The notes under the pieces were generated by a model that saw only the letters and a program-made list of their open reading frames with translations, made no database searches and had not been told where the DNA came from. Of a DNA stretch of 38,618 nt, positions 1-15,433 are shown one piece after another (position 1 is the first letter of the stretch; every line of letters starts with the position of its first letter). The stretch is from a virus. Position numbers and translations under genes: made by a program. Location: UHGV virus genome UHGV-0392077; one strand, given 5' to 3'.

Positions 1-194
1 TGCTGGAGAATCCTGAACTGCTGGCGCAGGACGAATACGCGGCTCGTAGCGCGGCGTGGTTCTTCTCCAGCAAAGGTTGCATGAAGTATACCGACGATAT
101 TGCACGTGTAACTCTGATTATCAATGGTGGCCGGAACGGCATTAATGACCGGCGCGCGCGATACATCACTGCCAGTAAGGTGCTGACGGTATGA
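1..194 (+). CDS. endolysin, C-terminal part (GH19/chitinase-like lysozyme); N-terminal part is at 38183..38618
   Basis: Open frame from base 3 to TGA at 192-194 (LENPELLAQDEYAARSAAWFFSSKGCMKYTDDIARVTLIINGGRNGINDRRARYITASKVLTV*). Base 38618 plus bases 1-2 form an in-frame CTG codon, joining it to the ORF that starts at 38183. Confidence 0.8.
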   Translation, partial: LENPELLAQDEYAARSAAWFFSSKGCMKYTDDIARVTLIINGGRNGINDRRARYITASKVLTV

Positions 195-673
195 TCCTGA
201 CATTCGTAAAAGCATATTGGAAACAGTTGATTATCGTGTTGATGCTTGCTGTTCTGGTCATATCAGGAGTTGTTGCCTGGAATATACACGGCAGTCGTCA
301 GTACGACGCTGGGTATGCGCAGGCGAAGGAAGACCGCAAAGCTGAAGATGAGAGAGTTCGTCAGCACTACGAACAGGAGAAAGCGACCAATGAACGTGAA
401 GCTCAGCAGAGGATCGACCAGGCGCGCAATGATGCTCTTGATGCTGCCGCTCGCGCTGGCCGGTTGCAGCAACAACTCTTTGCCATCCGTGAGCAGCTCA
501 GGCAGTATAACGCCATTGTCGGCGCTGGGACGTCAGCCGCAGACACCGGAGTTTTGCTTGCCGACGTGCTCAGCAAATCTCTCGAGAGAAACAGACAACT
601 GGCAGAGTATGCTGACCGGGCAGCCGAAGCCGGAAGAGTCTGCGAAAAACAGTACGACACCCTGACCAGATAG
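191..673 (+). CDS. Rz: Rz-like i-spanin (inner-membrane spanin)
   Basis: ATG 191 overlaps the endolysin stop (ATGA). N-terminal TM helix (LIIVLMLAVLVISGVVAW) followed by a charged, coiled-coil-like periplasmic domain, with an embedded +1-frame lipoprotein gene: the classic Rz/Rz1 arrangement. Confidence 0.8.
   Translation: MILTFVKAYWKQLIIVLMLAVLVISGVVAWNIHGSRQYDAGYAQAKEDRKAEDERVRQHYEQEKATNEREAQQRIDQARNDALDAAARAGRLQQQLFAIREQLRQYNAIVGAGTSAADTGVLLADVLSKSLERNRQLAEYADRAAEAGRVCEKQYDTLTR
429..665 (+). CDS. Rz1: Rz1-like o-spanin (outer-membrane lipoprotein), embedded in the +1 frame of Rz
   Basis: ATG at 429 in the frame of ORF 246..665. Signal peptide MMLLMLPLALAGC with lipobox LAG|C, then a Pro/Ser-rich mature part. 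Only the distal part of the long ORF is taken as the gene. Confidence 0.7.
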   Translation: MMLLMLPLALAGCSNNSLPSVSSSGSITPLSALGRQPQTPEFCLPTCSANLSRETDNWQSMLTGQPKPEESAKNSTTP

Positions 674-846
674 CATGGCATTTTTCATGGTACTGATTTC
701 CGGTGACGGTATATAAAACGGTACGAGAAAAATTTATCTTTGGAAAAATGTTATCACTCAATTGGTTATGTTATCCGTAAATAATTGAGTGGGAATGATT
801 AACAGCTAACTCATAGCAAGTCATTCCTATTCAGATACTAACTCAA

Positions 847-878
847 CCCTCTGTTTTTACAGAGGGTTTTTGTTTTTA
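847..878 (+). terminator. rho-independent terminator ending the late/lysis operon
   Basis: Stem CCCTCTG (847-853), loop TTTTTA, stem CAGAGGG (860-866), then T-run TTTTTGTTTTT. Confidence 0.6.
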
Positions 879-933
879 TGTATTCATTTCTATTCACTCT
901 ACACCATATTTTTCGGCGGTACAGGTGACGGTA

Positions 934-948
934 TTACCTTAAAGGTAT
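934..948. promoter_or_regulatory. operator-like palindrome TTACC-ttaaa-GGTAT (imperfect copy)
   Basis: Matches the dispersed TTACC-N5-GGTAA motif; lies 43 bp upstream of the int start. Confidence 0.4.
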
Positions 949-990
949 ACTCTCATACCGTCATGAAAATGGTTTCTATACGGGTGAATT

Positions 991-2241
991 GTGCTTACCG
1001 ATACAAAATTAAAAAACCTCAAGCCGCAGGACAAACTGTACAAGGTCTCCGATCGTGACGGGCTGTATGTAGCTGTGCTTACGTCAGGCACGGTCTCGTT
1101 TCGCTACGACTACCGTATCAACGGTCGCCGCGAAACGCTGGTAATCGGGCAGTATGGGCGTGACGGTATCAGCCTGGCAGAAGCGCGAGAAGAACTGATT
1201 GCTGCAAAGAAGCTGCTTAAAGCAGGCCAGTCACCGGCTGCGGCTAAACGTGACGGTATCAAAAAGATTCGTGGTGCCGAGACGTTTGCGGTACATACCG
1301 ACAGTTATATGAAACACGTCATCCTGGCTGACAGTACCCGCGCAATGAAACAGGCGGTGATCGACCGTGACATACTTCCGGTTCTTGGCAATAAAATGAT
1401 GGCTGAAATTACCACATCGATGGTTCGTGATTTGTGTGACCGGATTGTCGAACGCGGTGGCCGGGCAACAGCAGTGCAGGCCAGGGAGATCATCAGTAGC
1501 GTATACCGTCACGCCAATGACCGTGGTCATGGTTTGTTTAATCCTGCGGCTGACATTAAACCTTCGTCTATCGCCATATTTAAACCACGAGAGCGAACAC
1601 TGACACCAGAAGAAATTGGCCTGTTCTTCCGCACGCTGGATGCCATTGGTGCTATGGGCACTATGAAAATGGCTTTAAAACTGGTGCTTATCACTATGGT
1701 TCGTAAGGGCGAATTCACCAATGCAACGTGGGATGAAATAGATTTTAAAAAATGGACATGGACAATTCCTTCAGACCGCATGAAAGGAAGCCGGGCGCAC
1801 GTTATTTACCTGCCTAAACAGGCACAGGATATATTGGTCGGGTTGCAGATGTGCGCTGGTGGAAGTGAATATCTGGTTCCTGGTCGTTACAACTTCCGGA
1901 AGCCATTATCTAATGCCGCGCTGAACTCTCTGATCGACAGAACGGTGAAAATAATAAATGAAGATGGTGAGCATATTCAGGACTTCACCGTACACGATAT
2001 GCGCCGTACAGCCAGTACGTTGTTGCATGAGGCTGGTTATCCTTCAGACTGGATTGAAAAGGCTCTGGCACATGAGCAGAAAGGTGTGCGCGCCGTATAT
2101 AACAAAGCGGAATACGCCAGACAGCGCGCCTACATGTTGCAGCAGTGGGCCGATATGATTGATTCCTGGATTAACGGGGAGCATACGGATCTGATTCCGT
2201 TCTCCCCGTCGAAGTTTGAGAAGTGGATGGCGGGGGAATAA
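991..2241 (+). CDS. int: tyrosine integrase (P4-type, N-terminal arm-binding domain)
   Basis: 416 aa from GTG 991. N-terminus LYKVSDRDGLYVAV...VSFRYDYRINGRRETLVIGQYG resembles the P4-type integrase N-terminal domain; C-terminus carries the catalytic signature HDMRRTASTLLHEAGY...VRAVYNKAEY (H-x-x-R ... Y). Confidence 0.9.
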   Translation: MLTDTKLKNLKPQDKLYKVSDRDGLYVAVLTSGTVSFRYDYRINGRRETLVIGQYGRDGISLAEAREELIAAKKLLKAGQSPAAAKRDGIKKIRGAETFAVHTDSYMKHVILADSTRAMKQAVIDRDILPVLGNKMMAEITTSMVRDLCDRIVERGGRATAVQAREIISSVYRHANDRGHGLFNPAADIKPSSIAIFKPRERTLTPEEIGLFFRTLDAIGAMGTMKMALKLVLITMVRKGEFTNATWDEIDFKKWTWTIPSDRMKGSRAHVIYLPKQAQDILVGLQMCAGGSEYLVPGRYNFRKPLSNAALNSLIDRTVKIINEDGEHIQDFTVHDMRRTASTLLHEAGYPSDWIEKALAHEQKGVRAVYNKAEYARQRAYMLQQWADMIDSWINGEHTDLIPFSPSKFEKWMAGE

Positions 2242-2244
2242 CGT

Positions 2245-2439
2245 TTAATTATTCTGCTGATTTTCTTCCATCTCGGCTTCTGCTGCCAGTGATTCAATTT
2301 TGTCTGCGAATATTGCTGACAGCGTTGCAAATTCAGCATCAGTGACAGCGGGAATCGGAACAAACCTGATCCCGCTGTGTGCAAGCATGTTTGCAGTTTC
2401 AAGGCATTTCCTTAAATCTGCTGGTGATGCCCTGTTCAT
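2245..2439 (-). CDS. hypothetical small protein (64 aa)
   Basis: ATG at 2439 overlaps the stop of the upstream methyltransferase gene (ATGA overlap), suggesting translational coupling; convergent with int with a 3-nt gap. No recognisable motif. Confidence 0.4.
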   Translation of the reverse strand: MNRASPADLRKCLETANMLAHSGIRFVPIPAVTDAEFATLSAIFADKIESLAAEAEMEENQQNN

Positions 2440-3086
2440 GCTGCACGCTCCCGCCCCTGGTTGTCTGTTGGTGACAGCGGAGCATTGCTGAATGCATTTG
2501 TTAATCCGCCAATATCCAACGCGTATCCGGGGTGTAGTTGCACTGCCGGGTCTTCGCACTGATTACCCCAAACATCGAAGCCATGAGACGACTGGCGGGC
2601 GAACAGTTCAATGCGAGAAACATCGCCTAACAATTGCACAAGTTTTTCACGAACGACATCTGGTTTTCTTGAATGCTCAAGCCGCGGTGCCGTAAATGAC
2701 TGAACGATCCCTGCATTAATGCGCGGAGGTAGTTTTCCCTTTACTGCAAACAGGCAATCTTCACTATTGGCGCGAGTCATGTGACCCATACCCATAACCA
2801 GTTTATCTGGTTGTCGACTACCACATTTTATCCACGTGAATCCCTTCATGGTCATCAGACGGAACCCCCAGGCTTCAACAACTTTTAGTGCTTCGAGTGG
2901 TTGTGTTGGCACCCACCACATGGCCAACAGACAGTTTTCATCGGCCAAATCCCACACAGGAAGGCGGCAGATGTCCAGCACACTCATAACCGGATATTTA
3001 AAACCGGCACCGCGATTACCATCTGCGGCTTTGTCCCGGTATACCCAGGGTGGATCTGCATAGATTAGTGTGTATTTCTTAGTCAT
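2436..3086 (-). CDS. MT-A70 family DNA N6-adenine methyltransferase
   Basis: Contains YADPPWVY (the DPPW catalytic motif of MT-A70-type adenine methyltransferases). ATG at 3086 preferred over GTG at 3098. Confidence 0.8.
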   Translation of the reverse strand: MTKKYTLIYADPPWVYRDKAADGNRGAGFKYPVMSVLDICRLPVWDLADENCLLAMWWVPTQPLEALKVVEAWGFRLMTMKGFTWIKCGSRQPDKLVMGMGHMTRANSEDCLFAVKGKLPPRINAGIVQSFTAPRLEHSRKPDVVREKLVQLLGDVSRIELFARQSSHGFDVWGNQCEDPAVQLHPGYALDIGGLTNAFSNAPLSPTDNQGRERAA

Positions 3087-3378
3087 AAACCACCCCACAA
3101 CATCCTATGCCGCTATAGTCGCCACGGCGAAGGCCGTTACCTTTTGTGATACATTGGTCCCTGCGAACCGCGATCCTCGCACGCTCAACATCACCAGAAG
3201 CAACATCCATACACTGAAGCCAAAGGTGAGCGGCAATGCGGAACTGCCCTTTTTTCTCTCTTTCAATCGCGCGTTTTTCGATCTCTATCGCCGCAGGAGT
3301 AACGGCGACAATCTTTGACGGACTGCGCATTGAAACCTTGTTCATGTGATATTTTTCAAGTCGGCTTAACTTTTTCAC
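3079..3378 (-). CDS. hypothetical protein
   Basis: ORF with GTG start at 3378 (SD-like GAGGG upstream) or ATG at 3345; its stop overlaps the methyltransferase start. No recognisable motif. Confidence 0.45.
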   Translation of the reverse strand: MKKLSRLEKYHMNKVSMRSPSKIVAVTPAAIEIEKRAIEREKKGQFRIAAHLWLQCMDVASGDVERARIAVRRDQCITKGNGLRRGDYSGIGCCGVVYD

Positions 3379-3487
3379 TTAATCCAACCCTCTCTGAAAA
3401 TTAATGCCAGCAGATAAAGCCATGCTGAAACAGAGGCCAGGAATAAGTACCATCCTGACCATTTGCTCCAGTGCCTTAGCAGCACAC

Positions 3488-3736
3488 TCATGCAGCGTTG
3501 CTCACAGGACGATATACACGTTGCTGAACAGGAGGCTTTTTACCCTGGAACTCTGCCGGGCTTGCTGCCTGACGTTCATCAAGCCAACGCTCAACTTCAT
3601 CACGGTTCCATGCGCAGCGTTTGTCAGTGATATACCAGCGTTTAGGAAATTCCCCTGCGCGCTCCATGCGGTCGATAGTGCTCCATGACAGTGGCACCAC
3701 CGCCAGGAGTTCCTTCTTACCTAATGCACCTTTCAT
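3488..3736 (-). CDS. AlpA-family excisionase / transcriptional regulator
   Basis: 82 aa; LSWSTIDRMERAGEFPKRWYI...RCAWNRDEVERWL resembles AlpA/Xis-type winged-HTH proteins that partner P4-type integrases. SD GAGG 7 nt upstream of ATG 3736. Confidence 0.7.
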   Translation of the reverse strand: MKGALGKKELLAVVPLSWSTIDRMERAGEFPKRWYITDKRCAWNRDEVERWLDERQAASPAEFQGKKPPVQQRVYRPVSNAA

Positions 3737-3785
3737 AAATACCTCTCTTGGTTGCAGTGCGGCGCGCGTGGCGCCGCGGTGGTGG

Positions 3786-4703
3786 TTACATAGATGTTTC
3801 GTTTAATTCTTCCCGACGAACGCTGTAAACGTCGGTGGCTTTTGCCAGCAGTTCGTCATCATCTGAAAGTTTTTGTGCAATGTATTTGTAAGCTTTATCC
3901 AGTTCGGAGACAGTGCTGTAATTCATCGCTGCGCTGGTAAAGGCCATCAGCATTTCTTCTGGATCACGGCTATCCGCTTTACGCGTTTGCTCATCAGGCT
4001 TTTTCACTTGTTTAGCGTTGATCAGACTGTTCATGCTGGATGCTGTGCCGTGCTTTGCCTGACTTCTTGGAGTTACGTCACGTTCAATAATGTCAGGTGA
4101 GTCGATATATTTACCTTCCATTTCCTCAGCTGTGGCTTGTTGACCAATCTCCGGCCATGCTTTACGTAATGCCTGTGCCTCTGCGCATTTTGCCAACTGC
4201 GCATAAGGGCGCTTTTTCCACATGGCATTTGGTGCCGATGTGTCACGCCCCCCAGTTGCATAGTTCTCAATCCAGTATTCTTTGGCGCTAAACTCTACGA
4301 TTTCCCCGCTTGCCATTCGCTTGCTGACGGTGTACTTACACCACTGAGGGAAGGTAACCTCCACGCCTGAAAGCGTTTGTGTTACATCTGGACCGAACTC
4401 AGGTTCATTAGCGCCTGCGTAATCGCCGGAACGGTAGGCCTGAATGCGATAAAGTCCAATGCCAGGCATGACCACGTCGCGCCATTCATTCTTTCCACTC
4501 TTCGAGTCTTTAACACTCATTGGTACCAGGTGTACCGGCTTAAGAAGAGGATCGAGTTGACGCGCACGGCAGTAATCGACTGCCATCATTACCGATTCAT
4601 CTTTTGCCCCAGGGTAAATACTGTTTTTCAGAGCGCTCCATGTAACTTCATCGATTCCCCGAATAGCCAACACATCATTGGTGATTGCAATTTCGTTGCT
4701 CAT
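3786..4703 (-). CDS. recT: RecT/Redbeta-family single-strand annealing protein
   Basis: AMWKKRPYAQLAKCAEAQALRKAWPE fits the W..M..K.A...A.R.A.P pattern of the RecT family. ATG 4703 overlaps the stop of the upstream exonuclease gene (ATGA); the ORF track start at 4730 is probably an N-terminal over-extension. Confidence 0.7.
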   Translation of the reverse strand: MSNEIAITNDVLAIRGIDEVTWSALKNSIYPGAKDESVMMAVDYCRARQLDPLLKPVHLVPMSVKDSKSGKNEWRDVVMPGIGLYRIQAYRSGDYAGANEPEFGPDVTQTLSGVEVTFPQWCKYTVSKRMASGEIVEFSAKEYWIENYATGGRDTSAPNAMWKKRPYAQLAKCAEAQALRKAWPEIGQQATAEEMEGKYIDSPDIIERDVTPRSQAKHGTASSMNSLINAKQVKKPDEQTRKADSRDPEEMLMAFTSAAMNYSTVSELDKAYKYIAQKLSDDDELLAKATDVYSVRREELNETSM

Positions 4704-5521
4704 ACGTACATATCCTGTTTGCGTGCCCACTCAGGGCGTTTAATAATTTCCACGCCGCCCCATTCATCGCTGATGCGGCATTCGTGATAGGTATTCAGAT
4801 CCCGGCGGAACAGAGCGTGCCCGGCATCGACATCCGGCGCATCCAGCTCGAACACGCGTACTGGATACCGACCACAATCAATGCTTTCGCTCACGGCAAG
4901 AAAGAAAAAACCATGCGGCTGACCAGTAACCCTCATTGCGCCTTCGCGGTACATTGCGTCCTGCACGTGGTAGCGGAATTCCTCGATGTGGCGTGCAAAA
5001 CGGTCCATATCTGCAACCTTTTTCACGTCGACGATCACGTTGTGCTCGTTCAGCCATTTGTCTGGACGAATGCGGCACAACTCACCAGTATCTTCATCGT
5101 TCCAGTACATTGATGCTTCGCAGTAACCAGGTGCTTCCAGCATCCAGCGTGCCGCCGGGTGAGCCATTGCGCTATCACGCATCAGCTCCAGTTTCCGCCA
5201 CTGCTCGGCATCAAGTACCGTAATCCCCATATCCGCCACATCACGAAGAAATGCCTCTTCGTCAGCTTTACCTTGTTTCGTCCGACGTTCGAATTTCGGT
5301 GAAACAATGAAGCGTTTGTCGAACTCTCCAGGCTCCAGAAGCAGACAGTGCAATGCGGTTCCCATATCCAGTGCAGACTTTTTCTCTTCGTCTTCTGGTG
5401 CTGCCTGAACCCATTTAAGAAGCGCCGGATTCTTGGCAACCATGTCCAGTTGCGATTTACTCACGCCGTCACCGGCGTGGTAGTCTTCGTTGCTGATGTC
5501 GAAATAAATTCCCGCTTTCAT
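4700..5521 (-). CDS. RecE-like 5'-3' exonuclease (PD-(D/E)xK superfamily), partner of the annealase
   Basis: 273 aa; N-terminus GIYFDISNEDYHAGDGVSKSQL resembles RecE/exonuclease VIII-type domains; sits directly upstream of and is translationally coupled to the RecT-like gene. Confidence 0.6.
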   Translation of the reverse strand: MKAGIYFDISNEDYHAGDGVSKSQLDMVAKNPALLKWVQAAPEDEEKKSALDMGTALHCLLLEPGEFDKRFIVSPKFERRTKQGKADEEAFLRDVADMGITVLDAEQWRKLELMRDSAMAHPAARWMLEAPGYCEASMYWNDEDTGELCRIRPDKWLNEHNVIVDVKKVADMDRFARHIEEFRYHVQDAMYREGAMRVTGQPHGFFFLAVSESIDCGRYPVRVFELDAPDVDAGHALFRRDLNTYHECRISDEWGGVEIIKRPEWARKQDMYV

Positions 5522-5817
5522 GCCGCGTCCCTCTGCCCATCAATCTGATCAGCCAGATCCCAGCGGGCGATAATTGCCATTGCCTCGCGACGGTAGGCAT
5601 CCATCAGTTCTTCGAACTCAGGGCTGTCTTTAGCAGCCTCCAGTACTTCCTGACGAACGCCTTTGCCTGTTACAACGTCGAAAGTTGAGGACAGTTGATG
5701 AAGTCGGATGCTCTCAATCAGTTCAACTTGTCGGTCATATAGCTGTTCTGACAGGCGGTAGTCCTTGTCGAATGCCAGCATGATTTTTTGAAGATTTTTC
5801 TGCTGATTAACGTTCAT
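5518..5817 (-). CDS. hypothetical protein (99 aa), in the Gam-like position upstream of the exonuclease
   Basis: ATG at 5817 preceded by GGGAGGG; stop overlaps the exonuclease start. No recognisable motif. Confidence 0.5.
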   Translation of the reverse strand: MNVNQQKNLQKIMLAFDKDYRLSEQLYDRQVELIESIRLHQLSSTFDVVTGKGVRQEVLEAAKDSPEFEELMDAYRREAMAIIARWDLADQIDGQRDAA

Positions 5818-5819
5818 TA

Positions 5820-5972
5820 TCAGCCCTCCCATATCTCGTTATCGTTGGCTACATCGCGAGCTTCTTTGCTGACGAAAGCCCACTTAATGCCTTCCTGTAA
5901 GGTGCGGAACTTCCAGCTCATGAATCCGCATGCAGTAACGCAGTACCAACCGTTGATGATTTTCCACTGCAT
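5820..5972 (-). CDS. small hypothetical protein (50 aa), first ORF of the leftward operon
   Basis: Hand-translated: MQWKIINGWYCVTACGFMSWKFRTLQEGIKWAFVSKEARDVANDNEIWEG*. GAGGT 9 nt upstream of ATG 5972. Below the ORF-track size cut-off. Confidence 0.3.
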   Translation of the reverse strand: MQWKIINGWYCVTACGFMSWKFRTLQEGIKWAFVSKEARDVANDNEIWEG

Positions 5973-5991
5973 AACTTGTTACCTCGGTCTG

Positions 5992-6006
5992 TTACCGTTG
6001 AGGTAA
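5992..6006. promoter_or_regulatory. operator-like palindrome TTACC-gttga-GGTAA
   Basis: Perfect half-sites; between the leftward promoter candidate and the first leftward ORF. Confidence 0.5.
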
Positions 6007-6034
6007 TGATTATGCGTATCTGGTTTGATGTCAA
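6007..6034 (-). promoter_or_regulatory. candidate leftward early promoter (PL-like)
   Basis: Minus strand reads TTGACA (6034..6029) followed by CATAAT-like -10 (6014..6009); spacer is only about 14-16 nt, so exact hexamers are uncertain. Flanked by two operator palindromes. Confidence 0.35.
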
Positions 6035-6053
6035 TAGATATGAGTTAAAAAAA

Positions 6054-6068
6054 TTACCCATAAGGTAA
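6054..6068. promoter_or_regulatory. operator-like palindrome ATTACC-cataa-GGTAAT
   Basis: Perfect 17-bp palindrome (6053-6069). Confidence 0.5.
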
Positions 6069-6079
6069 TCGCATAGGCA

Positions 6080-6105
6080 ATAAAAAAGCCGCCATGAGGC
6101 GGCTT
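6080..6105 (-). terminator. rho-independent terminator of the repressor gene
   Basis: Minus strand: AGCCGCC-TCAT-GGCGGCT followed by TTTTTTATT. Confidence 0.6.
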
Positions 6106-6125
6106 ACTTACTGAAAAATATGATT

Positions 6126-6710
6126 TTATTGTTTGCTTTTTTCGTTCTGGTTGATGACAAATTCAATGTAACTTTCGATCTTTGCCTTCTCTGTTTCAGG
6201 TAACAATGCGTAGCGCGAGCGATCATAGTTGATAGTCGCAGGGTCGTGCGGGTGAATCAGTAATTCATAGCCGTGACGCCCGAATGCGGATGCAACATTC
6301 TCCAGGGTGGAAATGGAAACGCTGACTTCATTGTTTAACAGGCGGCTGATTGTCACCTGGGCGACGCCGGATGCGCGGTGAAGTTTTCCCTGTGTTGAAA
6401 GGTCGCGGCTTTCGCTCATCCAGCGTTCCAGGTTGTGAGCCGCCAGCTGACCAATGTCGCTTGGGCCGACAGGCTGAAACCCCTCCTGAGAAAGCGAGCG
6501 ATCGATATCAAGCCAGTTACGGGGTTTATTGGCGGCAGCTTCAATTTTTCGCGCAACCTGGTCGCCGATAACCTTCTTGCCAAGAGCCCAGCGGTTTACC
6601 AGATTTGCCTGAGTTCCAAGTTTTTCTGCCATCCGCGTCTGAACACCATTGAATTCACGGTCGATCAAGTCGTTGAGATTTTGCCTGCGGACGTCCTGGA
6701 TACTTTTCAT
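6126..6710 (-). CDS. phage repressor (CI-like), two HTH-like segments, no S24 peptidase domain
   Basis: 194 aa; HTH-like segments GVQTRMAEKLGTQANLVNRWALGKK and GVAQVTISRLLNNE; no Ser/Lys autoprotease signature. Divergent from the Cro-like gene across an operator cluster. Confidence 0.65.
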   Translation of the reverse strand: MKSIQDVRRQNLNDLIDREFNGVQTRMAEKLGTQANLVNRWALGKKVIGDQVARKIEAAANKPRNWLDIDRSLSQEGFQPVGPSDIGQLAAHNLERWMSESRDLSTQGKLHRASGVAQVTISRLLNNEVSVSISTLENVASAFGRHGYELLIHPHDPATINYDRSRYALLPETEKAKIESYIEFVINQNEKSKQ

Positions 6711-6765
6711 TTTCTGGAAAATCGCCTCATATATGAATCAGTAGATGATTCAATTTAAAGCAATA

Positions 6766-6780
6766 TTACCCAACAGGTAA
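6766..6780. promoter_or_regulatory. operator-like palindrome TTACC-caaca-GGTAA (site 1 of the divergent-promoter cluster)
   Basis: Perfect half-sites in the repressor/cro intergenic region. Confidence 0.55.
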
Positions 6781-6782
6781 AT

Positions 6783-6797
6783 GCACCTCATAGGTAA
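6783..6797. promoter_or_regulatory. operator-like variant GCACC-tcata-GGTAA (site 2)
   Basis: Right half-site perfect, left half degenerate; a near-identical GCACC-tcaaa-GGTAA occurs at 7151-7165. Confidence 0.4.
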
Positions 6798-6803
6798 CTA
6801 TCC

Positions 6804-6835
6804 TTGATTTTTGTTACCTTATGGGTGAATATTTA
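6804..6835 (+). promoter_or_regulatory. candidate rightward early promoter (PR-like)
   Basis: TTGATT at 6804-6809, then an A/T-rich -10 candidate around 6828-6835; operator site 3 lies in the spacer. Confidence 0.35.
6814..6828. promoter_or_regulatory. operator-like palindrome TTACC-ttatg-GGTGA (site 3)
   Basis: Same TTACCTTAnnGGTGAAT variant as the site at 9115-9129. Confidence 0.5.
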
Positions 6836-6864
6836 TTATCTGAAATAAATATCAGGCAATAGCT

Positions 6865-7095
6865 ATGAGCGATAACGGACATTTCGATTTCAAAAAGCAC
6901 TGGCTTGCACTTACTCCGGATGAGCGTGAAGCCTTCGCACAGGAAGCCGGAACGACGAGTCACTATATCCAGACTCACTTAACAGGTAAGCGCAAAATGC
7001 CAGGTAAAGTATTGATGAATGGGCTTTTTAAAGCCTGTAAAACAAGACAATGGCTGCGCTCAAAAGCAGAACTGGCATACTTCTTCTACTCATGA
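6865..7095 (+). CDS. Cro-like HTH DNA-binding protein (putative)
   Basis: 76 aa, first gene of the rightward operon, divergent from the repressor; segment EREAFAQEAGTTSHYIQTHLTGKR is HTH-like. Confidence 0.5.
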   Translation: MSDNGHFDFKKHWLALTPDEREAFAQEAGTTSHYIQTHLTGKRKMPGKVLMNGLFKACKTRQWLRSKAELAYFFYS

Positions 7096-7116
7096 TATCC
7101 AGCTACAACCCTCTGT

Positions 7117-7142
7117 AGACCGCCACCTGGCGGTCTTTTCAT
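7117..7142 (+). terminator. rho-independent terminator after the Cro-like gene (tR1-like)
   Basis: AGACCGCC-ACCT-GGCGGTCT followed by TTTTC. Confidence 0.5.
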
Positions 7143-7150
7143 ATCTATTC

Positions 7151-7165
7151 GCACCTCAAAGGTAA
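7151..7165. promoter_or_regulatory. operator-like variant GCACC-tcaaa-GGTAA
   Basis: Near-identical to the variant at 6783-6797; immediately downstream of the terminator. Confidence 0.35.
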
Positions 7166-7243
7166 TAAAAAACCAAATCTGGTTGATCAAATTTTCCAAT
7201 TGTGCAAAATATCCAATATCAATAACAAAAAGGGGCGGAAAAA

Positions 7244-7456
7244 TTGAAGATAGTAACCAGAATGGAGGCCGCAAAAGCCGGGTTAAATCGCTATTTCACA
7301 GGAAAGCGGTGCCGTCACGGCCATCTCTCTGAAAGGTATGTTCTGAACGGAACATGTGTTGAATGTGCAATGAATAGCGCCAACCGCCATCGTAATGAAT
7401 TTGCTTGTGCACTAAAGAGTGCAAGAGGGGAAACCTATGGCAAGCAGCTGGATTAA
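7244..7456 (+). CDS. small Cys/His-rich (zinc-ribbon-like) protein
   Basis: 70 aa from TTG 7244 (AGGGG upstream); contains C-x-H-G-H ... C-x-E-C. Confidence 0.4.
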   Translation: MKIVTRMEAAKAGLNRYFTGKRCRHGHLSERYVLNGTCVECAMNSANRHRNEFACALKSARGETYGKQLD

Positions 7457-8267
7457 GGTTGAAGTTATCACTCCTGATAAACCTGAAATTTTTCAGATAG
7501 CAGAAATTCTGGGTATTGATCCAGATGCTGTTCTTGGAAAGCTGGTTCGTATATGGGCATGGGCTGACCAGCAAACAATAGACGGTAACGCTGGCAGCGT
7601 TACAAAAGGAGTACTTGATAGACTCGCTTTTATTACAGGATTTGCTGACGCCCTCATTAGCGTCGGATGGCTTGCTTATCATGACGGCAAACTAATTCTT
7701 CCAAACTTTGAGCGACACAATGGAGAATCATCGAAAAAACGTGCACTTACGAATAGAAGAGTGGCAGAGCATCGAAAACGAGTAACGCAAAAAGTAACGC
7801 CAACAGCGTTACAAAAGGAGTTACCAGAGGAAGAGGAAGAGGAAGATATATATAAAACCCCACACATAGCGCACGTGCGCGAGGGTGCTCCGACCAGTGA
7901 AGCGAACGGTATGCCGTTGCAGGTGGCTGAACCTGAATTTCTGGATGGCCTGAGTGAACCCATCGGGAAATTTCCGATGACCGATGGCTGGCATCCGTCG
8001 CCGGATTTTCGACGGCGTGCTGCGCTGTGGGGAACGGCCCTGCCGGAACCGGAATTTACACCTGCTGAACTTGCTGCATTCCGGGATTACTGGATGGCTG
8101 AGGGCAAAGTGTTCACGCAGGTTCAGTGGGAACAAAAATTCGCCAGGCACGTAAATCATATCAGGGGAAAATCAAAAAACGCCGGGAAAAGCGATGAGCT
8201 TGACTGGAATAACACTGACTGGATAGAAGGGGTGTGGGATGAAATCAACTCCAGAACTTCTCAATGA
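7437..8267 (+). CDS. replication initiation protein with DnaT-like C-terminal domain
   Basis: C-terminus GKFPMTDGWHPSPDFRRRAALWGTALPEPEFTPAELAAFRDYWMAEGKVFTQVQWEQKFARHV closely parallels the E. coli DnaT C-terminus as I recall it. ATG 7437 with SD-like AGAGGGG. Iteron-like repeats lie inside the gene. Confidence 0.7.
   Translation: MASSWIKVEVITPDKPEIFQIAEILGIDPDAVLGKLVRIWAWADQQTIDGNAGSVTKGVLDRLAFITGFADALISVGWLAYHDGKLILPNFERHNGESSKKRALTNRRVAEHRKRVTQKVTPTALQKELPEEEEEEDIYKTPHIAHVREGAPTSEANGMPLQVAEPEFLDGLSEPIGKFPMTDGWHPSPDFRRRAALWGTALPEPEFTPAELAAFRDYWMAEGKVFTQVQWEQKFARHVNHIRGKSKNAGKSDELDWNNTDWIEGVWDEINSRTSQ
7585..7860. repeat. iteron-like repeats plus AT-rich tract: candidate replication origin inside the initiator gene
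   Basis: GTAACGCT/AGCGTTAC inverted pair at 7585-7603; AGTAACGC at 7781 and 7793; 17-bp direct repeat AGCGTTACAAAAGGAGT at 7596-7612 and 7805-7821, read in different codon phases; then GAGGAAGAGGAAGAGGAAGA and TATATATAAAA (7845-7857). Confidence 0.35.
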
Positions 8268-9015
8268 GTACGATCGCTTACGTGAGCATGGTGTTGCTGT
8301 GCATGAAGAGCGGCGTGACAGCAATGGCAAAAAGGAGCAGGTCGCTAGAATTTTCAATGAACTATTTGTCCAGTTACAGGCTGCATTTCCTGCAAGCGTT
8401 TCGACCATAAGGGAGCAGAACAAACTTAATGAATTCCGTAAGCAATGGATGCTTGCGTTTCTGGAGAATGGGATCACTACAATGGAACAGGTTAACGCTG
8501 GTATGCGCTACGCCCGCGCCAGTGAATCTCCGTTCTGGCCGTCGCCAGGGCAATTTATCAAGTGGTGTAAAGACAGCAAGATGGTTCTTGGCGTCACCAT
8601 TGACGATGTGATGGCGGAGTTTCACCGGTACAGCAAGGAAAAAAGTTTATATCCTGGTGGTCCCGAAAGATTCCCGTGGCGGCATCCGGTTATGTACTGG
8701 GTCGTATGTGATACCCGCCGTGCAATGTATCAGCGCCAGCTTAGCGAGATTGAGGTTGAGAAACACGCGCGCAGGCTGCTCGATGATTGGGCGAAAAAGG
8801 TGGCTTCCGGGCAGCAGATACCAGATCCGGTGATCAGCATACAGGCAAAGCCAGAACCCATGAGTACGCCTCCGGACACAGGGAGAGACGTTTACCACCC
8901 GCCAGGGCGAAGTTTCGGGTGCATGCCTAACGCCGCCACCACGGGGGGAATAACACCGGCGCAGTGGCTGATGGAGGAATACAGGCGGGGAAAGGCGGCA
9001 GGATTTATCAAGTAA
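8239..9015 (+). CDS. lambda P-like replication protein (DnaB helicase loader)
   Basis: Segment QVARIFNELFVQLQAAFPASVSTIREQNKLNEFRKQWMLAFLENGITTMEQVNAGMRYARASESPFWPSPGQFIKWC is near-collinear with phage lambda P as recalled (…FPASLANRDQNEVNEIRRQWVLAFRENGITTMEQVNAGMRVARRQNRPFLPSPGQFVAWC…). Confidence 0.8.
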   Translation: MKSTPELLNEYDRLREHGVAVHEERRDSNGKKEQVARIFNELFVQLQAAFPASVSTIREQNKLNEFRKQWMLAFLENGITTMEQVNAGMRYARASESPFWPSPGQFIKWCKDSKMVLGVTIDDVMAEFHRYSKEKSLYPGGPERFPWRHPVMYWVVCDTRRAMYQRQLSEIEVEKHARRLLDDWAKKVASGQQIPDPVISIQAKPEPMSTPPDTGRDVYHPPGRSFGCMPNAATTGGITPAQWLMEEYRRGKAAGFIK

Positions 9016-9052
9016 TACCAGCGCGATAGCGCATTTTTTTACGTCTCAACAA

Positions 9053-9067
9053 TTACCTATCAGGTAA
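9053..9067. promoter_or_regulatory. operator-like palindrome ATTACC-tatca-GGTAAT
   Basis: Perfect 17-bp palindrome in the 117-bp gap after the P-like gene. Confidence 0.5.
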
Positions 9068-9114
9068 TAAAATATTCTAAACTCTATTGATTTCGTGTCT
9101 TATGTGGTTTTTAA

Positions 9115-9129
9115 TTACCTTAGAGGTGA
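9115..9129. promoter_or_regulatory. operator-like palindrome TTACC-ttaga-GGTGA
   Basis: Overlaps the SD region 4 nt upstream of ATG 9133. Confidence 0.45.
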
Positions 9130-9132
9130 ATC

Positions 9133-9477
9133 ATGAGAAAACAGATACAGGCTCTTGGTCGACTCAAAACAGGCCAGATGAACAAAACAGAATCTGCGTA
9201 TTGCCAGCACCTTGAGCTGCGTAAACGTGCAGGGGAAATCGCCTGGTATCGATTCGAGGGTATCAAGCTGCGGTTAGCTGACAACACGTTCTATACGCCA
9301 GATTTCGCAGTGATGCTCGCCACCGGAGAGATGGAACTGCACGAAGTGAAAGGTTTCTGGACCGATGACGCCAGGGTGAAAACCAAAGTCGCCGCAGATC
9401 AGTATCCGTTCCGAATCATCGGGGTAACGGTTAAACCAAAGAAAGCAGGTGGTGGCTGGAACATCGAAGAGTTCTGA
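9133..9477 (+). CDS. hypothetical protein, DUF1064-like (possible nuclease)
   Basis: 114 aa; the family assignment is from memory of the overall pattern (YTPDFAV ... HEVKG) and is unverified. Confidence 0.45.
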   Translation: MRKQIQALGRLKTGQMNKTESAYCQHLELRKRAGEIAWYRFEGIKLRLADNTFYTPDFAVMLATGEMELHEVKGFWTDDARVKTKVAADQYPFRIIGVTVKPKKAGGGWNIEEF

Positions 9478-9538
9478 ATCGACGATCTTTTTAGTTATCA
9501 ATGTAATCAATAAGTTATGTGGATAAGCGAGGGTAAAG

Positions 9539-10060
9539 ATGGAAAGTAATATCAAAGGGTTAGTTGCCGCCGGGCATGAGATGGCTTCGGAACTGAAAGC
9601 AGAATGTGGTGCCGTTGATATGCGTAGTGTGGCAAAGCTGCTCAGCGATTTTGCAACGCAACTGGAAGTGCAACTGGTGCGTGCTAATGCGCTGGCTGCG
9701 GAGAATGCGGGGCTGAAGTCGAACCTGATTTGCTGGGGCGGCGAAGATTCAGGGGCTGTCAGAAGTCCGCTTGATTACGCCCGTGCAGCCGGGCTGGAAT
9801 CTGGAGAGGAGTTTGAGATGCAAGTGGCAGCCAGAATGCCGAACCTGACTTATCGCGTTGTGTCGAATTCCCGATTCAGAACAACAATAGAACTGGTTGA
9901 CGGATCATTGCCGGAAACCCCAGCCACCAATGCTTTTCTGGCTGAAGTACGGGCGCAGGGGGTTGAGATGATGCGCGAACACCCATCAATCAAACTTTGC
10001 TCTTTGACGCACATATGTGACGAGTTCGCCGCCCAGCTTCGCAAAGGAGGCAACCAGTGA
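9539..10060 (+). CDS. hypothetical protein
   Basis: 173 aa ORF with an SD-like GAGGG upstream; no recognisable motif. Confidence 0.45.
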   Translation: MESNIKGLVAAGHEMASELKAECGAVDMRSVAKLLSDFATQLEVQLVRANALAAENAGLKSNLICWGGEDSGAVRSPLDYARAAGLESGEEFEMQVAARMPNLTYRVVSNSRFRTTIELVDGSLPETPATNAFLAEVRAQGVEMMREHPSIKLCSLTHICDEFAAQLRKGGNQ

Positions 10061-10683
10061 GCAAGATTGACTATCAGGCACTGCGTGAAAAGGCAGAGAA
10101 AGCAACGTGTGGGGTGTGGTCGCTCGAATATGGAGAGAGCCGATTTGATTGTGATGATGCGCTAATTCATCGTGACGTTGTTGGATATCTTCCCATTTGC
10201 AGAATTGAAGGAGCGCATCCAGAAAGCGGTTTCGATGAAGATTTCCAAATGGAACAGCAGGCCAATGCTGAATTCATCGCCGCAGTCAATCCAGCTACCG
10301 TCTTGGCGCTGCTGGATGAACGGGGAATCCCAAAACAAGCTATTGCAGAACTGGAGAAAAGCGAAGAGCAACTCATTAACGAGCGTGACCATGCTGAGTC
10401 TGCTTTAGATGATATGTACTTTGCAGCAACCGGTAACAGGCCGGAGTGGAGCAACTGGTTCGGCTTTTCAGATGCTGTCGATGCCGTGGTTGACAGAATT
10501 GCTGATTTAGAAGCTCAACAGCCATCGCCAGTAGTACCGGAAGGACTGGTTAAAGCAGTGCGCTTCTATGAACAGGTTAAGCGTGAAAATCCGCCAGTCG
10601 AAACCGGAGCATGGAAAGACGCTGTTGACTGGGTGCTCAAAGAGGCTTGCCAGGTTGTAAACACTGGCATCAAAGGAGAGTGA
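10057..10683 (+). CDS. Ead/Ea22-like protein (putative)
   Basis: GTG 10057 overlaps the upstream stop (GTGA) and follows AAAGGAGG. N-terminus IDYQALREKAEKATCGVW and acidic coiled-coil-like middle resemble Ead/Ea22-family prophage proteins. Confidence 0.45.
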   Translation: MSKIDYQALREKAEKATCGVWSLEYGESRFDCDDALIHRDVVGYLPICRIEGAHPESGFDEDFQMEQQANAEFIAAVNPATVLALLDERGIPKQAIAELEKSEEQLINERDHAESALDDMYFAATGNRPEWSNWFGFSDAVDAVVDRIADLEAQQPSPVVPEGLVKAVRFYEQVKRENPPVETGAWKDAVDWVLKEACQVVNTGIKGE

Positions 10684-10684
10684 T

Positions 10685-11200
10685 ATGGCGTTAACACACC
10701 GCGAACTCTGTCAGATTGCGTACAAGTTCCTTAAGCGCAACGGTTTCAAGGTTTGTTTTCATGACCGCTTTATAGCTGTAACCAGTACCGGAGAACAGCC
10801 AGATGCTATGGGATTCAGAAATTCAGCATCATGCCTGATAGAGGCGAAGTGTTCTCGTGCTGACTTGTTAGCAGATAGAAAAAAGCGTTTTCGTAAAAAT
10901 CCGTCTCTTGGAATGGGCGACTGGCGATTCTTTATTAGTGAGCCGGGAATTATTTCAATTGAGGATTTACCACCTGGCTGGGGATTACTTCACGTTGTTA
11001 ACGGAAGAGTACGGAAAGTACATGGGTGGCCCAAGGGTAATTGCTGTTGGGGTAATCCTGACGATAAGCCATTTACTGGGAATAAGCAGGTTGAATGCGA
11101 TTACATGTTATCTGCATTAAGGCGCATGGAGTTGAGAGGGCACCTTAATGAAATATATGACGGTGTAATTGTTAATAAGAAAGAAGGAAACGCGGCATGA
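10685..11200 (+). CDS. hypothetical protein with PD-(D/E)xK-like motif
   Basis: 171 aa; D...IEAK arrangement (DAMGF...CLIEAKCS) suggestive of a restriction-endonuclease-like fold; unverified. Confidence 0.4.
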   Translation: MALTHRELCQIAYKFLKRNGFKVCFHDRFIAVTSTGEQPDAMGFRNSASCLIEAKCSRADLLADRKKRFRKNPSLGMGDWRFFISEPGIISIEDLPPGWGLLHVVNGRVRKVHGWPKGNCCWGNPDDKPFTGNKQVECDYMLSALRRMELRGHLNEIYDGVIVNKKEGNAA

Positions 11201-12081
11201 TCACTATTACCAATAGCAAACTAACAGACGAATACGTTTCAAATGCAACGTTGATTCGGCTCATTCTGTGGGCTGACCAGCACAATAGCCATTATGTTGT
11301 AGCGGCTCTGCGCGAGCTACAGGAGCGCCGCAAGGCTGATAGTGTGCCTGTAGAAGTCAACGACGACATGGCTTACGCATTCCATCACGCACTGTCAGAT
11401 TCATCGCTAGGCGCTGATGAAGTAGAGGAAATTAAGGCCGGTTTGCGTGCTGCCTTTGCCAATGTCACCGTCCAGCCGGTGCTGATAGTGCCGGATGAAA
11501 TCGAGCCAGACGATAGCAATACGTTTGATTATGTTGATGGCTGGAACGCCTGCCGCGCCGCCATGCTTCAGGCTGGAAACTTTCGGGAAAATAAGGATTC
11601 GCCAACCAATAATTTTCGGGAAATCTCGGAAACGTCAACCAACTATCCGGTAATTCCTAGTGAGGTGTTGTCCGCAATCCAGAAGGTTGCCAAGATTCGT
11701 GCCGATTTCGATGATTTTGACGGTGACAGGCGAGGTATCGGTGATTGTCTGGATGAGGCTGAGCAAGAGCTTATCGTTACCATTAACAAATATGCCAGTC
11801 AGTTGGCAGCAGAACCTATAGCGCCTAATGACGTTCGAGAGCAGACAGCCATTCCGCAAGTTCCGGTAACTCCGGATAGTTGGATAAGCTGTAGTGAGCG
11901 AATGCCAGATGATGGTCAGCACGTAATTATTTTATGTGATGGCGCATTCGTTCTTTATGCGCAATATCGAGACGGTGAGTTTTTTGATGTTGTCCGCAAT
12001 GGTGAGGAGTTCTTCGAAACGCAGAGCCGCAATGTAACCCACTGGATGCCGCTACCAGAACCGCCGCAGGAGGTGAAGTGA
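11197..12081 (+). CDS. Ead/Ea22-like protein with DUF551-like C-terminus (putative)
   Basis: 294 aa; C-terminus WISCSERMPDDGQHVIIL...YAQYRDGEFF...THWMPLPEPP resembles the DUF551 module common in prophage early regions. Confidence 0.45.
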   Translation: MITITNSKLTDEYVSNATLIRLILWADQHNSHYVVAALRELQERRKADSVPVEVNDDMAYAFHHALSDSSLGADEVEEIKAGLRAAFANVTVQPVLIVPDEIEPDDSNTFDYVDGWNACRAAMLQAGNFRENKDSPTNNFREISETSTNYPVIPSEVLSAIQKVAKIRADFDDFDGDRRGIGDCLDEAEQELIVTINKYASQLAAEPIAPNDVREQTAIPQVPVTPDSWISCSERMPDDGQHVIILCDGAFVLYAQYRDGEFFDVVRNGEEFFETQSRNVTHWMPLPEPPQEVK

Positions 12082-12365
12082 TGGACTCCTTCGCGAAATA
12101 TACGATTATTGACTGGATAGCCTTCCTTCAGGTTTTGCTCATCTGGTTTTATATGGCTTACAGGAGTGGACAGTGGATTGTCAGTGTAGCCTGTAGCAAG
12201 GGATGGCGTTGGTGGAACCGAAAGAATAAAAAAGCACTGGCATTGGATTCGTTTTACGAAGCATTCAATCTTAACAGCCTTCAGCCTGGTTCTGTCATTG
12301 TAGTCACCACTCAAAGCGGCATGACGATACAAATTCACAAGCCAAAGGAGGAAGGTCGTGGCTAA
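12081..12365 (+). CDS. hypothetical membrane protein
   Basis: ATG 12081, 7 nt after AGGAGG; N-terminal hydrophobic helix (IIDWIAFLQVLLIWFYMAY). Confidence 0.45.
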   Translation: MDSFAKYTIIDWIAFLQVLLIWFYMAYRSGQWIVSVACSKGWRWWNRKNKKALALDSFYEAFNLNSLQPGSVIVVTTQSGMTIQIHKPKEEGRG

Positions 12366-12639
12366 CCTGCAACTTGCCGTTAAAGGTGAATACTTCGATG
12401 CCATGATTCGCGGGGAGAAAACGGAAGAGTATCGCCTGTGTAATGACTACTGGAATAAGCGAATTATGTTACGGGTGTATGACCGTCTGATTATCACAAA
12501 GGGATATCCGAAGCGCGACGATTCCAGTCGCAGAATTGATGTTCCGTATGGCGGATATGAAATAAAGACAATCACACATCCCCACTTCGGCGATAAACCG
12601 GTAAAGGTGTTCGCGATAAAGGTAAATATTGATGGCTAA
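12358..12639 (+). CDS. ASCH/DUF3850-like small protein (putative)
   Basis: GTG 12358 after AAGGAGGAAGG; VKGEYFDAMIRGEKTEEYRLCND pattern resembles ASCH-type domains. Confidence 0.4.
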   Translation: MANLQLAVKGEYFDAMIRGEKTEEYRLCNDYWNKRIMLRVYDRLIITKGYPKRDDSSRRIDVPYGGYEIKTITHPHFGDKPVKVFAIKVNIDG

Positions 12640-12970
12640 ATCAGCAGCAGAGCGCAAAGCCGCTCAGAGAGCCAGACAAGCTGCATCTGGTGTGCGTAAG
12701 CTGGAGATTGTGCTTGATGCTCAGGAAATTGAAATGCTGGAGCGTAACTGTGCCACGCGTCGCCCCGGGCATGCGCCTTACGAATTTGGTGAGTATATAG
12801 CGTTACTGATCCGCCAGGATGATGCACGCGTGCGCGGGCGTATAAAATCGATCAGCAGAAAACGTTGCGGTAAGTGCGGCGAGAGAGTTCCAGTTAATTC
12901 ATGCCCGTGTAATGGTGACTCGCAATGCTGGGTGACTAAAGGCTGGCATGAAACGAAATTAATAGTGTGA
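12632..12970 (+). CDS. hypothetical DNA-binding-like protein with C-terminal Cys cluster; candidate late regulator
   Basis: Basic N-terminus AKSAAERKAAQRARQAASGVRKLEIVLDAQEIEMLE and C-terminal C-G-K-C ... C-P-C-N-G; last gene before the late-operon junction. Function inferred from position only. Confidence 0.4.
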   Translation: MAKSAAERKAAQRARQAASGVRKLEIVLDAQEIEMLERNCATRRPGHAPYEFGEYIALLIRQDDARVRGRIKSISRKRCGKCGERVPVNSCPCNGDSQCWVTKGWHETKLIV

Positions 12971-12978
12971 CATGTCAC
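12967..12978. repeat. perfect 12-bp palindrome GTGACATGTCAC (copy 1 of 3)
   Basis: Exact string; contains the TGA stop of the upstream gene; followed by GAAGGTGTTAT. Confidence 0.9.
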
Positions 12979-12987
12979 GAAGGTGTT

Positions 12988-13200
12988 ATGCCAAAAATAC
13001 GCTACGACCTTGAAGATATGAGAGATAACTCAGCAAATTTTCCGAAAGAGGTTAAATTTCTCATGCATAAGTATGGTTGCGCCAGGAGGGATATAGTTAT
13101 CGACAGTCAGCACCCTTGCGGCGAGGATGTAATTTTCATTCGCGGTAAATGGGAAGGGTATCTTGACGAGAGTTTTTACGATGAATTTGATGGACTTTGA
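12988..13200 (+). CDS. hypothetical small protein (70 aa)
   Basis: ATG 12988 with AAGGTG upstream; could alternatively be part of a late-operon leader. Confidence 0.35.
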   Translation: MPKIRYDLEDMRDNSANFPKEVKFLMHKYGCARRDIVIDSQHPCGEDVIFIRGKWEGYLDESFYDEFDGL

Positions 13201-13205
13201 ATACT

Positions 13206-13231
13206 GCCGCCAACTATGGCGGCTTTATTTT
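13206..13231 (+). terminator. rho-independent terminator immediately upstream of the terminase genes
   Basis: GCCGCC-AACTAT-GGCGGC followed by TTTATTTT. Confidence 0.6.
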
Positions 13232-13242
13232 GCATGGTACTA

Positions 13243-15429: not shown

Positions 15430-15433
15430 GGTG

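What the first reader, a model, noticed from the sequence alone, without database searches (positions are those of the whole stretch)
1..194. Window ends join in frame inside the endolysin gene: circular or circularly permuted complete phage genome
The ORF from 38183 has no stop before the window end, and the open frame at 3..194 ends in TGA. Base 38618 plus bases 1-2 form an in-frame CTG, and the joined product is about 209 aa, a normal size for a GH19-type endolysin. The record is therefore a circular assembly, or a permuted linear genome, opened arbitrarily inside a gene, which also implies the whole genome including attP is in the window.
Basis: seen in the sequence. Interest (0 to 1): 0.55.

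Follow-up and report, generated by a model that had tools for sequence, protein, structure and literature searches.

The report
Circular phage genome cut inside endolysin
The two ends of this sequence are neighbouring bases of one ordinary phage lysis gene, because the window is a complete, already well-known type of temperate E. coli phage genome written out as a circle and cut at an arbitrary point.

Summary
ATG 38183..38618 plus 1..194 (TGA 192-194) make a 630-nt ORF. Codon 146 (CTG) is built from base 38618 and bases 1-2. The 209-aa product is a GH19 endolysin, aligned without gaps to the solved SPN1S endolysin (4OK7, E 2.5e-115) and 94-96% identical to the 209-aa endolysins of phiV10-like phages.

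The decisive test is the prophage at the 3' end of guaA in E. coli GN02350. Circularised from one att core to the other, it is 38,618 bp long. It is base-for-base identical to the window after a rotation of 37,835 bases. Window bases 38618 and 1 are adjacent in that chromosome, inside a RefSeq GH19 gene.

attP is inside the window at 784-800, 190 bp upstream of the integrase gene. It equals the published attP of phiV10, epsilon15 and ZX5.

The window is therefore one full unit of an epsilon15/phiV10-like (Uetakevirus-type) temperate podophage, and its ends are linearisation artefacts. Sequence alone cannot tell whether virion DNA is headful-packaged and circularly permuted; I think that likely but it is only inferred. 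The finding is ordinary and already known, so interest is low.

The parts
38183..38618 (+). Endolysin gene, 5' part: codons 1-145 plus the first base of codon 146. It carries Glu49 and Glu58 in the motif [17 protein letters not shown].
   Evidence: RefSeq CDS WP_020231248.1 'glycoside hydrolase family 19 protein' at the identical prophage.
1..194 (+). Endolysin gene, 3' part: the last two bases of codon 146, codons 147-209 and the stop TGA at 192-194.
   Evidence: The Pfam PF00182 match spans residues 116-169, across the junction at residue 146.
37885..38193 (+). Holin (PF05449, 3TM holin). It overlaps the endolysin start by 11 nt.
37494..37898 (+). Putative second holin or membrane protein (PF16931). 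The start is taken from the RefSeq annotation of the identical prophage; the longest ORF starts at 37482.
191..673 (+). Rz-like i-spanin (DUF2514). Its ATG overlaps the endolysin stop (ATGA).
   Evidence: The epsilon15 and phiV10 records annotate the homologue as Rz-like.
390..665 (+). Rz1-like o-spanin candidate, embedded in the +1 frame of Rz, with lipobox LAGC. It starts 199 nt after the Rz start, the same offset as the annotated Rz1 of epsilon15.
784..800 (+). attP core ATTGAGTGGGAATGATT. Bases 784-794 are the 11 bp duplicated at both ends of the GN02350 and CU532-9 prophages. The phage side rebuilds the last guaA codons (ATT GAG TGG GAA TGA = IEWE-stop).
   Evidence: The published attP is in PMC9782041.
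991..2241 (+). [quoted passage not shown]
13197..13871 (+). Terminase small subunit (PF03592). Relatives such as phiV10, epsilon15 and Tyrion are conventionally opened just upstream of this gene.
13868..15343 (+). Terminase large subunit. It matches PHROG_2 but has no Pfam or PDB sequence match.

Best explanation
The window is exactly one unit (38,618 bp) of the genome of a temperate epsilon15/phiV10-like podophage of E. coli, written as a circle that was linearised at an arbitrary base inside codon 146 of its GH19 endolysin gene. The window ends are bookkeeping ends, not biological ones. The same DNA exists as a prophage in the 3' end of guaA. Integrase-mediated recombination between the two 11-bp att cores excises it as a circle carrying attP at 784-800, which is the form the window shows. 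The split gene is the endolysin of a standard lysis cassette (membrane protein/holin, holin, endolysin, Rz with embedded Rz1) that ends just before attP. Contiguity of the ends, completeness, the attP position and the identity of the gene are shown. It is inferred, not shown, that virion DNA is cut from concatemers by a headful (pac) terminase and is therefore terminally redundant and circularly permuted, which would be why such genomes assemble as circles with no fixed start.
For: The joined ORF is 209 aa and colinear with homologues. The Pfam GH19 match scores 38.9 bits against a cutoff of 25.5 and spans the junction. Window 784..38618 equals L024 3033..40867 and window 1..794 equals L024 40868..41661, both at 100%. 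The att-to-att unit of the GN02350 prophage is 38,618 bp and equals the window after rotation by 37,835. The CU532-9 prophage gives the same layout with 3 mismatches. attP is identical to the experimentally proven 17-mer of phiV10, epsilon15 and ZX5 and lies 190 bp 5' of int. All modules of an epsilon15-like genome are annotated on the identical prophage: terS, terL, portal, protease, capsid, tail, tailspike, lysis, int, recombination, repressor and replication. The size fits relatives of 38.7-39.9 kb. Support for headful packaging is weaker. [quoted passage not shown] Deposited relatives are opened at three different places. The epsilon15 record annotates no cos, pac or terminal repeat, and its depositors note HHpred matches of TerL to Sf6 gp2 and TerS to the SF6 small terminase. 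TerS is PF03592.
Against: Nothing argues against contiguity or completeness. For the packaging step there are no reads and no virion-end data. TerL has no Pfam hit and no PDB sequence match at E<=1, so its class was not established here. The primary epsilon15 genome paper could not be read. An intact attP is not proof of a free phage form, because a tandem prophage array with an internal attP exists in FDAARGOS_1301.
Confidence: 0.95

Rival explanations
1. The window ends are real physical termini of a linear genome with fixed ends that happen to lie inside the endolysin gene.
For: None beyond the fact that the record is linear.
Against: The two ends are adjacent bases in two independent chromosomes. 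At least 80% of the junction-spanning query lies in one place in 350 E. coli genomes and 28 phage records. There is no terminal repeat at the ends. A fixed end there would split an essential lysis gene in every infecting genome until circularisation, and no relative is opened at this point.
Confidence: 0.01
2. The window is not from excised or virion DNA. It is a unit-length stretch taken from a head-to-tail tandem prophage or concatemer, or a prophage circularised and rotated by software.
For: A tandem pair of a related prophage with an intact lysis-attP-int junction exists in E. coli FDAARGOS_1301, with a period of 40,637 bp. The window equals the att-to-att unit of a chromosomal prophage exactly. 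No IMG/VR contig carries this exact attP junction.
Against: GN02350 and CU532-9 carry the prophage as a single copy, with the lysis-side and int-side pieces of the junction query at separate places and host genes on both sides. A length of exactly one unit is what circular-contig resolution yields. This rival concerns provenance only and leaves contiguity and completeness untouched.
Confidence: 0.15
3. The genome is complete and circularly closed in the assembly, but virions carry non-permuted DNA with fixed cos or short direct-terminal-repeat ends located elsewhere, for example near terS.
For: Several relatives (phiV10, epsilon15, SPN1S, Tyrion) are deposited starting just upstream of terS. 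The TerL class was not established here.
Against: Starting at terS is a common depositor convention. Tyrion, which starts there, is explicitly reported as circularly permuted. Virion-derived relatives ZX5 and EC.W1-9 are opened elsewhere. No cos or repeat feature is annotated in the richly annotated epsilon15 record.
Confidence: 0.25

Closest known systems
Prophage at guaA of Escherichia coli GN02350 (NZ_CP095518.1, 3697532-3736160) and of E. coli O4:H5 CU532-9 (NZ_CP082776.1)
   Same: GN02350: identical in every base once circularised att-to-att and rotated. CU532-9: identical except for 3 substitutions at window 16489, 17662 and 19211.
   Different: Only the topology differs. The chromosomes hold the integrated form (attL and attR, with the 11-bp core duplicated), whereas the window holds the attP form, opened in the endolysin gene.
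Escherichia phages vB_EcoP_ZX5, TL-2011b, HEMP4, vB_EcoP_PAS61, phiv142-3 and phiV10 (genus Uetakevirus)
   Same: 97.6-98.1% nucleotide identity over 78-85% of window 795-25000 for ZX5, TL-2011b, HEMP4, PAS61 and phiv142-3; phiV10 aligns over 48% at 97.9%. The lysis cassette, attP and integrase are arranged the same way. The endolysin is 94-96% identical and 209 aa long. The attP 17-mer and the guaA integration site are the same.
   Different: Some early-region and accessory segments are not shared: 15-22% of the query is uncovered in the five closest records. The tailspike here is a 607-aa GH28-related/pectate-lyase-like protein.
Salmonella phage epsilon15 (AY150271.2), type species of Uetakevirus
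   Same: The gene order is the same. The endolysin gene has the same 630-nt length, with 83% amino-acid and 77% nucleotide identity. Rz1 is embedded at the same 199-nt offset, and attP lies between Rz and int.
   Different: Overall identity is lower, 82.5% over the lysis-attP region. epsilon15 carries O-antigen polymerase and inhibitor conversion genes between tailspike and lysis, and none is annotated on the identical prophage here. It also has a different, 1070-aa tailspike.
SPN1S endolysin, PDB 4OK7 (GH19 phage endolysin)
   Same: Ungapped alignment over residues 1-207 at E 2.5e-115, with the [17 protein letters not shown] and [15 protein letters not shown] stretches identical.
   Different: About 81% identity. 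No activity was tested here.

Membership tests
GH19 (chitinase class I-like) phage endolysin | Match to the Pfam family model PF00182 above the curated cutoff | tested here: met
   38.9 bits against a cutoff of 25.5, covering residues 116-169, which straddle the window junction at residue 146.
GH19 (chitinase class I-like) phage endolysin | Full-length colinearity with a structurally solved member | tested here: met
   4OK7 SPN1S endolysin: query 1-207 aligned to chain 16-222 without gaps, E 2.5e-115.
GH19 (chitinase class I-like) phage endolysin | Two catalytic glutamates in the N-terminal half | tested here: met
   E49 and E58 (VGHE49SGGFTRLQE58N) are identical in the 4OK7 alignment. That these are the catalytic residues comes from my own knowledge of GH19 and SPN1S, not from a tool.
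GH19 (chitinase class I-like) phage endolysin | Peptidoglycan-degrading activity | not testable with these tools
   This needs an enzyme assay.
epsilon15/phiV10-like temperate podophages (genus Uetakevirus) | High nucleotide identity over most of the genome to recognised members (the genus-level convention of about 70% over full length is from my own knowledge of ICTV practice) | tested here: inconclusive
   Only window 795-25000 and the 2-kb junction were compared: 85% coverage at 98.1% identity to ZX5 and 85% at 97.6% to TL-2011b, and 90-95% identity over the junction. The remaining 13.6 kb was not compared with phage records as DNA.
epsilon15/phiV10-like temperate podophages (genus Uetakevirus) | Shared module order: terS-terL-portal-protease-capsid-tail-tailspike-lysis-attP-int-early genes | tested here: met
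   The RefSeq annotation of the identical prophage was compared with the epsilon15 record.
guaA-integrating tyrosine-integrase prophages (phiV10, epsilon15, ZX5 attP) | [quoted passage not shown] | tested here: met
   The 17-mer is at window 784-800 and int starts at 991. The prophage abuts the guaA stop in two genomes, with the 11-bp core duplicated. The published sequence is in PMC9782041.
Complete circularly closed phage genome | Ends adjacent in an independent record and total content equal to one att-to-att prophage unit | tested here: met
   The rotated GN02350 unit equals the window, 38,618 of 38,618 bases.
Headful (pac) packaging, terminally redundant and circularly permuted virion DNA | Permuted ends and terminal redundancy in virion DNA | not testable with these tools
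   No reads are available. Only indirect support exists: Tyrion is reported as permuted, relatives have heterogeneous record origins, and the epsilon15 depositors give HHpred notes.

The most novel reading that the evidence does not exclude
The least ordinary reading still allowed is this. The exact 14-mer ATTGAGTGGGAGTA at window 23003-23016 inside a virion gene equals the host attB form of the att core, and could act as a secondary integrase target. That would permit intramolecular attP x pseudo-attB recombination, splitting or rearranging the genome. The evidence points to coincidence: the site is in frame (IEWEY) and epsilon15 lacks it. As for the finding itself, nothing novel remains.
Probability: 0.02. 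Interest if true: 0.3.

Novelty: already known. Interest (0 to 1): 0.07.

Why it matters
The main value is for bookkeeping. The window can be treated as a complete, circularly closed genome, so the truncated ORFs at its two ends should be merged into one endolysin gene and not reported as two partial or novel genes. attP, integrase and the host site (guaA 3' end) are fixed, and the host is identified as E. coli, with identical prophages in a blood isolate and a stool isolate. It adds no new biology, because phiV10/epsilon15-like phages, their GH19 endolysin (whose structure is solved), their attP and their guaA integration are all published.

Tried and rejected
1. I searched for a terminal direct repeat at the window ends (10-600 bases) and found none, so the circle is not supported by an assembler overlap left in the record.

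2. I tried to find the source contig in IMG/VR using the exact 48-mer across attP. There were 0 matches, so the window is not an IMG/VR contig. No identical record exists in the phage collection either, where the best is 85% coverage.

3. I tried to establish the packaging class. TerL has no Pfam family and no PDB sequence match at E<=1, and only the very broad PHROG_2. The primary epsilon15 genome paper (PMID 17825342 / PMC2698709) is not held. The 2025 epsilon15 cryo-EM paper and the PAS61 paper say nothing on termini, and a search for Uetakevirus plus headful or PhageTerm gave nothing specific.

4. A 223-codon antisense open frame (38180..230) also crosses the junction. I rejected it as a gene because the equivalent frame in epsilon15 is open for only 158 codons.

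5. I rejected the idea that an intact attP alone proves an excised phage, because a chromosomal tandem array also contains one.

6. I did not run the large protein searches, structure prediction or the metagenome scan. The identity to a chromosomal prophage had already settled the question.

Full report
**Observation.** An ATG at 38183, with GAGG 8 nt upstream, opens a frame that runs without a stop to the last base of the window: 436 nt, or 145 codons plus one base. Base 38618 (C) and bases 1-2 (TG) make CTG. The frame then continues through 3..194 and ends in TGA at 192-194. The joined ORF is 630 nt, or 209 aa. The window ends share no direct repeat of 10-600 bases.

**Is the joined ORF real?** Yes.
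- Pfam places it in Glyco_hydro_19 (PF00182, 38.9 bits against a cutoff of 25.5). The matched stretch, residues 116-169, straddles the junction at residue 146.
- It aligns without a single gap over residues 1-207 to the solved endolysin of Salmonella phage SPN1S (4OK7, E 2.5e-115).
- tblastn gives one unbroken piece in the top 28 listed phage records, 22 of them over residues 1-209. Identity is 94-96% to the endolysins of TL-2011b, PAS61, phiv142-3, ZX5 and phiV10, and 83% to epsilon15.
- The epsilon15 gene is also exactly 630 nt. The junction codon lies in the conserved stretch GLKVDL(L/V)(E/Q)NPELL.

**Are the ends contiguous in real DNA?**
- A 2-kb query made of the last 1000 and first 1000 bases has at least 80% of its length in one place in 350 complete E. 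coli genomes and 28 phage records.
- The exact 40-mer across the junction occurs in 22 IMG/VR viral contigs.
- Two chromosomes, E. coli O4:H5 CU532-9 and E. coli GN02350, match query positions 1-1794 at 100.0%. The match then stops, which marks a prophage end.

**Completeness, the decisive test.**
- In CU532-9, window 784..38618 aligns to L001 42703..4869 with 3 mismatches and no gaps. Window 1..794 aligns to L001 4868..4075 at 100%. Window bases 38618 and 1 are therefore adjacent chromosome bases, and 784-794 is present at both prophage ends.
- In GN02350 both pieces are 100% identical. When the prophage is cut from the first att core to the second, the unit is 38,618 bp. After rotation by 37,835 bases it equals the window in every base.
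- RefSeq annotates the junction-spanning gene there as one 630-nt 'glycoside hydrolase family 19 protein', WP_020231248.1.
- The annotation of that prophage shows every module of an epsilon15-like genome: terS, terL, portal, protease, major capsid and cement proteins, tail and core proteins, tailspike, two holin-like proteins, endolysin, Rz, integrase, methylase, Bet/exonuclease, repressor and replication genes (compared with the epsilon15 record).

**attP.**
- The duplicated core is ATTGAGTGGGA at window 784-794.
- With its next six bases it is the 17-mer attgagtgggaatgatt. A paper on phage ZX5 reports this as the proven attP of phiV10, epsilon15 and ZX5, located 190 bp 5' of the integrase gene and recombining with the 3' end of guaA (PMC9782041). 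Here int starts at 991.
- The phage side rebuilds the last guaA codons, ATT GAG TGG GAA TGA. The host attB form is ATT GAG TGG GAG TAG. GuaA therefore keeps its C-terminus IEWE.

**What the window is.** It is one full unit of a temperate epsilon15/phiV10-like podophage of E. coli, in the attP (excised or replicative) configuration, linearised at an arbitrary base.
- The closest isolated phages are ZX5, TL-2011b, HEMP4, PAS61 and phiv142-3, at 97.6-98.1% identity over 78-85% of window 795-25000.
- The split gene sits in a standard lysis cassette. It comprises a PF16931 membrane/holin-like protein (37494-37898), a PF05449 holin (37885-38193), the endolysin, the DUF2514 Rz-like i-spanin (191-673, whose ATG overlaps the endolysin stop as ATGA), and an embedded Rz1-like lipoprotein candidate. 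That candidate lies at 390-665 with lipobox LAGC, at the same 199-nt offset as the annotated Rz1 of epsilon15.

**Circular, or permuted linear?** This is the one part that cannot be settled from sequence. The support for headful packaging is indirect.
- Deposited relatives are opened at attP (TL-2011b, PAS61, HEMP4, phiv142-3), just upstream of terS (phiV10, epsilon15, SPN1S, Tyrion) or elsewhere (ZX5, EC.W1-9). That looks like convention rather than physical ends.
- The richly annotated epsilon15 record has no cos, pac or terminal-repeat feature. Its depositors note HHpred matches of TerL to Sf6 gp2 and of TerS to the SF6 small terminase.
- My own attempts to class TerL failed: no Pfam family, no PDB sequence match, and only the broad PHROG_2.
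- I put headful packaging at roughly 0.6-0.7 and mark it as inferred.

**A caveat on provenance.** An intact attP does not by itself prove an excised form. In E. coli FDAARGOS_1301 a related prophage is present as a head-to-tail tandem pair. The same capsid protein accession recurs 40,637 bp apart, with an intact lysis-attP-int junction between the copies. The window could in principle be a unit taken from such an array, or a prophage circularised by software. Neither possibility changes the conclusions on contiguity and completeness.

**Novelty and verdict.** Everything here is known: the phage group, its solved GH19 endolysin, its attP and its guaA site. The identical sequence is already in two RefSeq chromosomes. 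The finding is correct, useful for annotation (merge the two end fragments into one gene and treat the record as circular), and biologically ordinary. Interest is 0.07.

Noticed in passing
window 23003-23016: A second copy of the 11-bp att core lies inside the 823-aa virion gene 22217..24688. It extends to the 14-mer ATTGAGTGGGAGTA, which is the host attB form rather than the attP form. It is in frame (…IEWEY…). About 2e-4 such matches are expected by chance, but epsilon15 has ATCCAGTGGGAGTA at the equivalent place, so it is probably a coincidence.
   Followed up: partly
L026 (NZ_CP070111.1 4854021-4896020): E. coli FDAARGOS_1301 carries a related prophage as a head-to-tail tandem pair. MCP WP_000268712.1 occurs twice, 40,637 bp apart, with an intact lysis-attP-integrase junction between the copies. 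This is either true tandem lysogeny at guaA or a long-read assembly of concatemeric or excised DNA into the chromosome.
   Followed up: partly
window 38180..38618 + 1..230, minus strand: A 223-codon open frame antisense to the endolysin also crosses the window junction. The equivalent frame in epsilon15 is open for only 158 codons, so it is most likely a by-product of endolysin codon usage and not a gene.
   Followed up: partly
window 16007-16083, minus strand: A tRNA-Arg (anticodon TCT) lies between terL and the portal gene. It is also annotated in the identical prophages and in the O157 typing phages 9 and 10.
   Followed up: no
window 16489, 17662, 19211: These are the only three differences from the CU532-9 prophage (window G/C/A against A/A/G). 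The second lies in the portal gene and the third in the peptidase gene, whose RefSeq protein accessions differ between CU532-9 and GN02350. GN02350 is identical to the window.
   Followed up: yes
window 11197-12081, plus strand: An uninterrupted 294-aa ORF is annotated by PGAP on the identical prophages as two partial pseudogene pieces (hypothetical or DUF551). FDAARGOS_1301 has a 374-aa DUF551 protein at the equivalent place. This may be an in-frame internal deletion or fusion.
   Followed up: no
window 32500-37416: The accessory region between the last large virion gene and the lysis cassette differs from relatives. Here the annotated genes are BRO-N, DUF2335 and small hypothetical genes on the minus strand, plus a 607-aa GH28-related/pectate-lyase-like tailspike. 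epsilon15 has O-antigen conversion genes and a 1070-aa tailspike, and FDAARGOS_1301 has an endosialidase-type tailspike. This is typical tailspike and moron module exchange.
   Followed up: no
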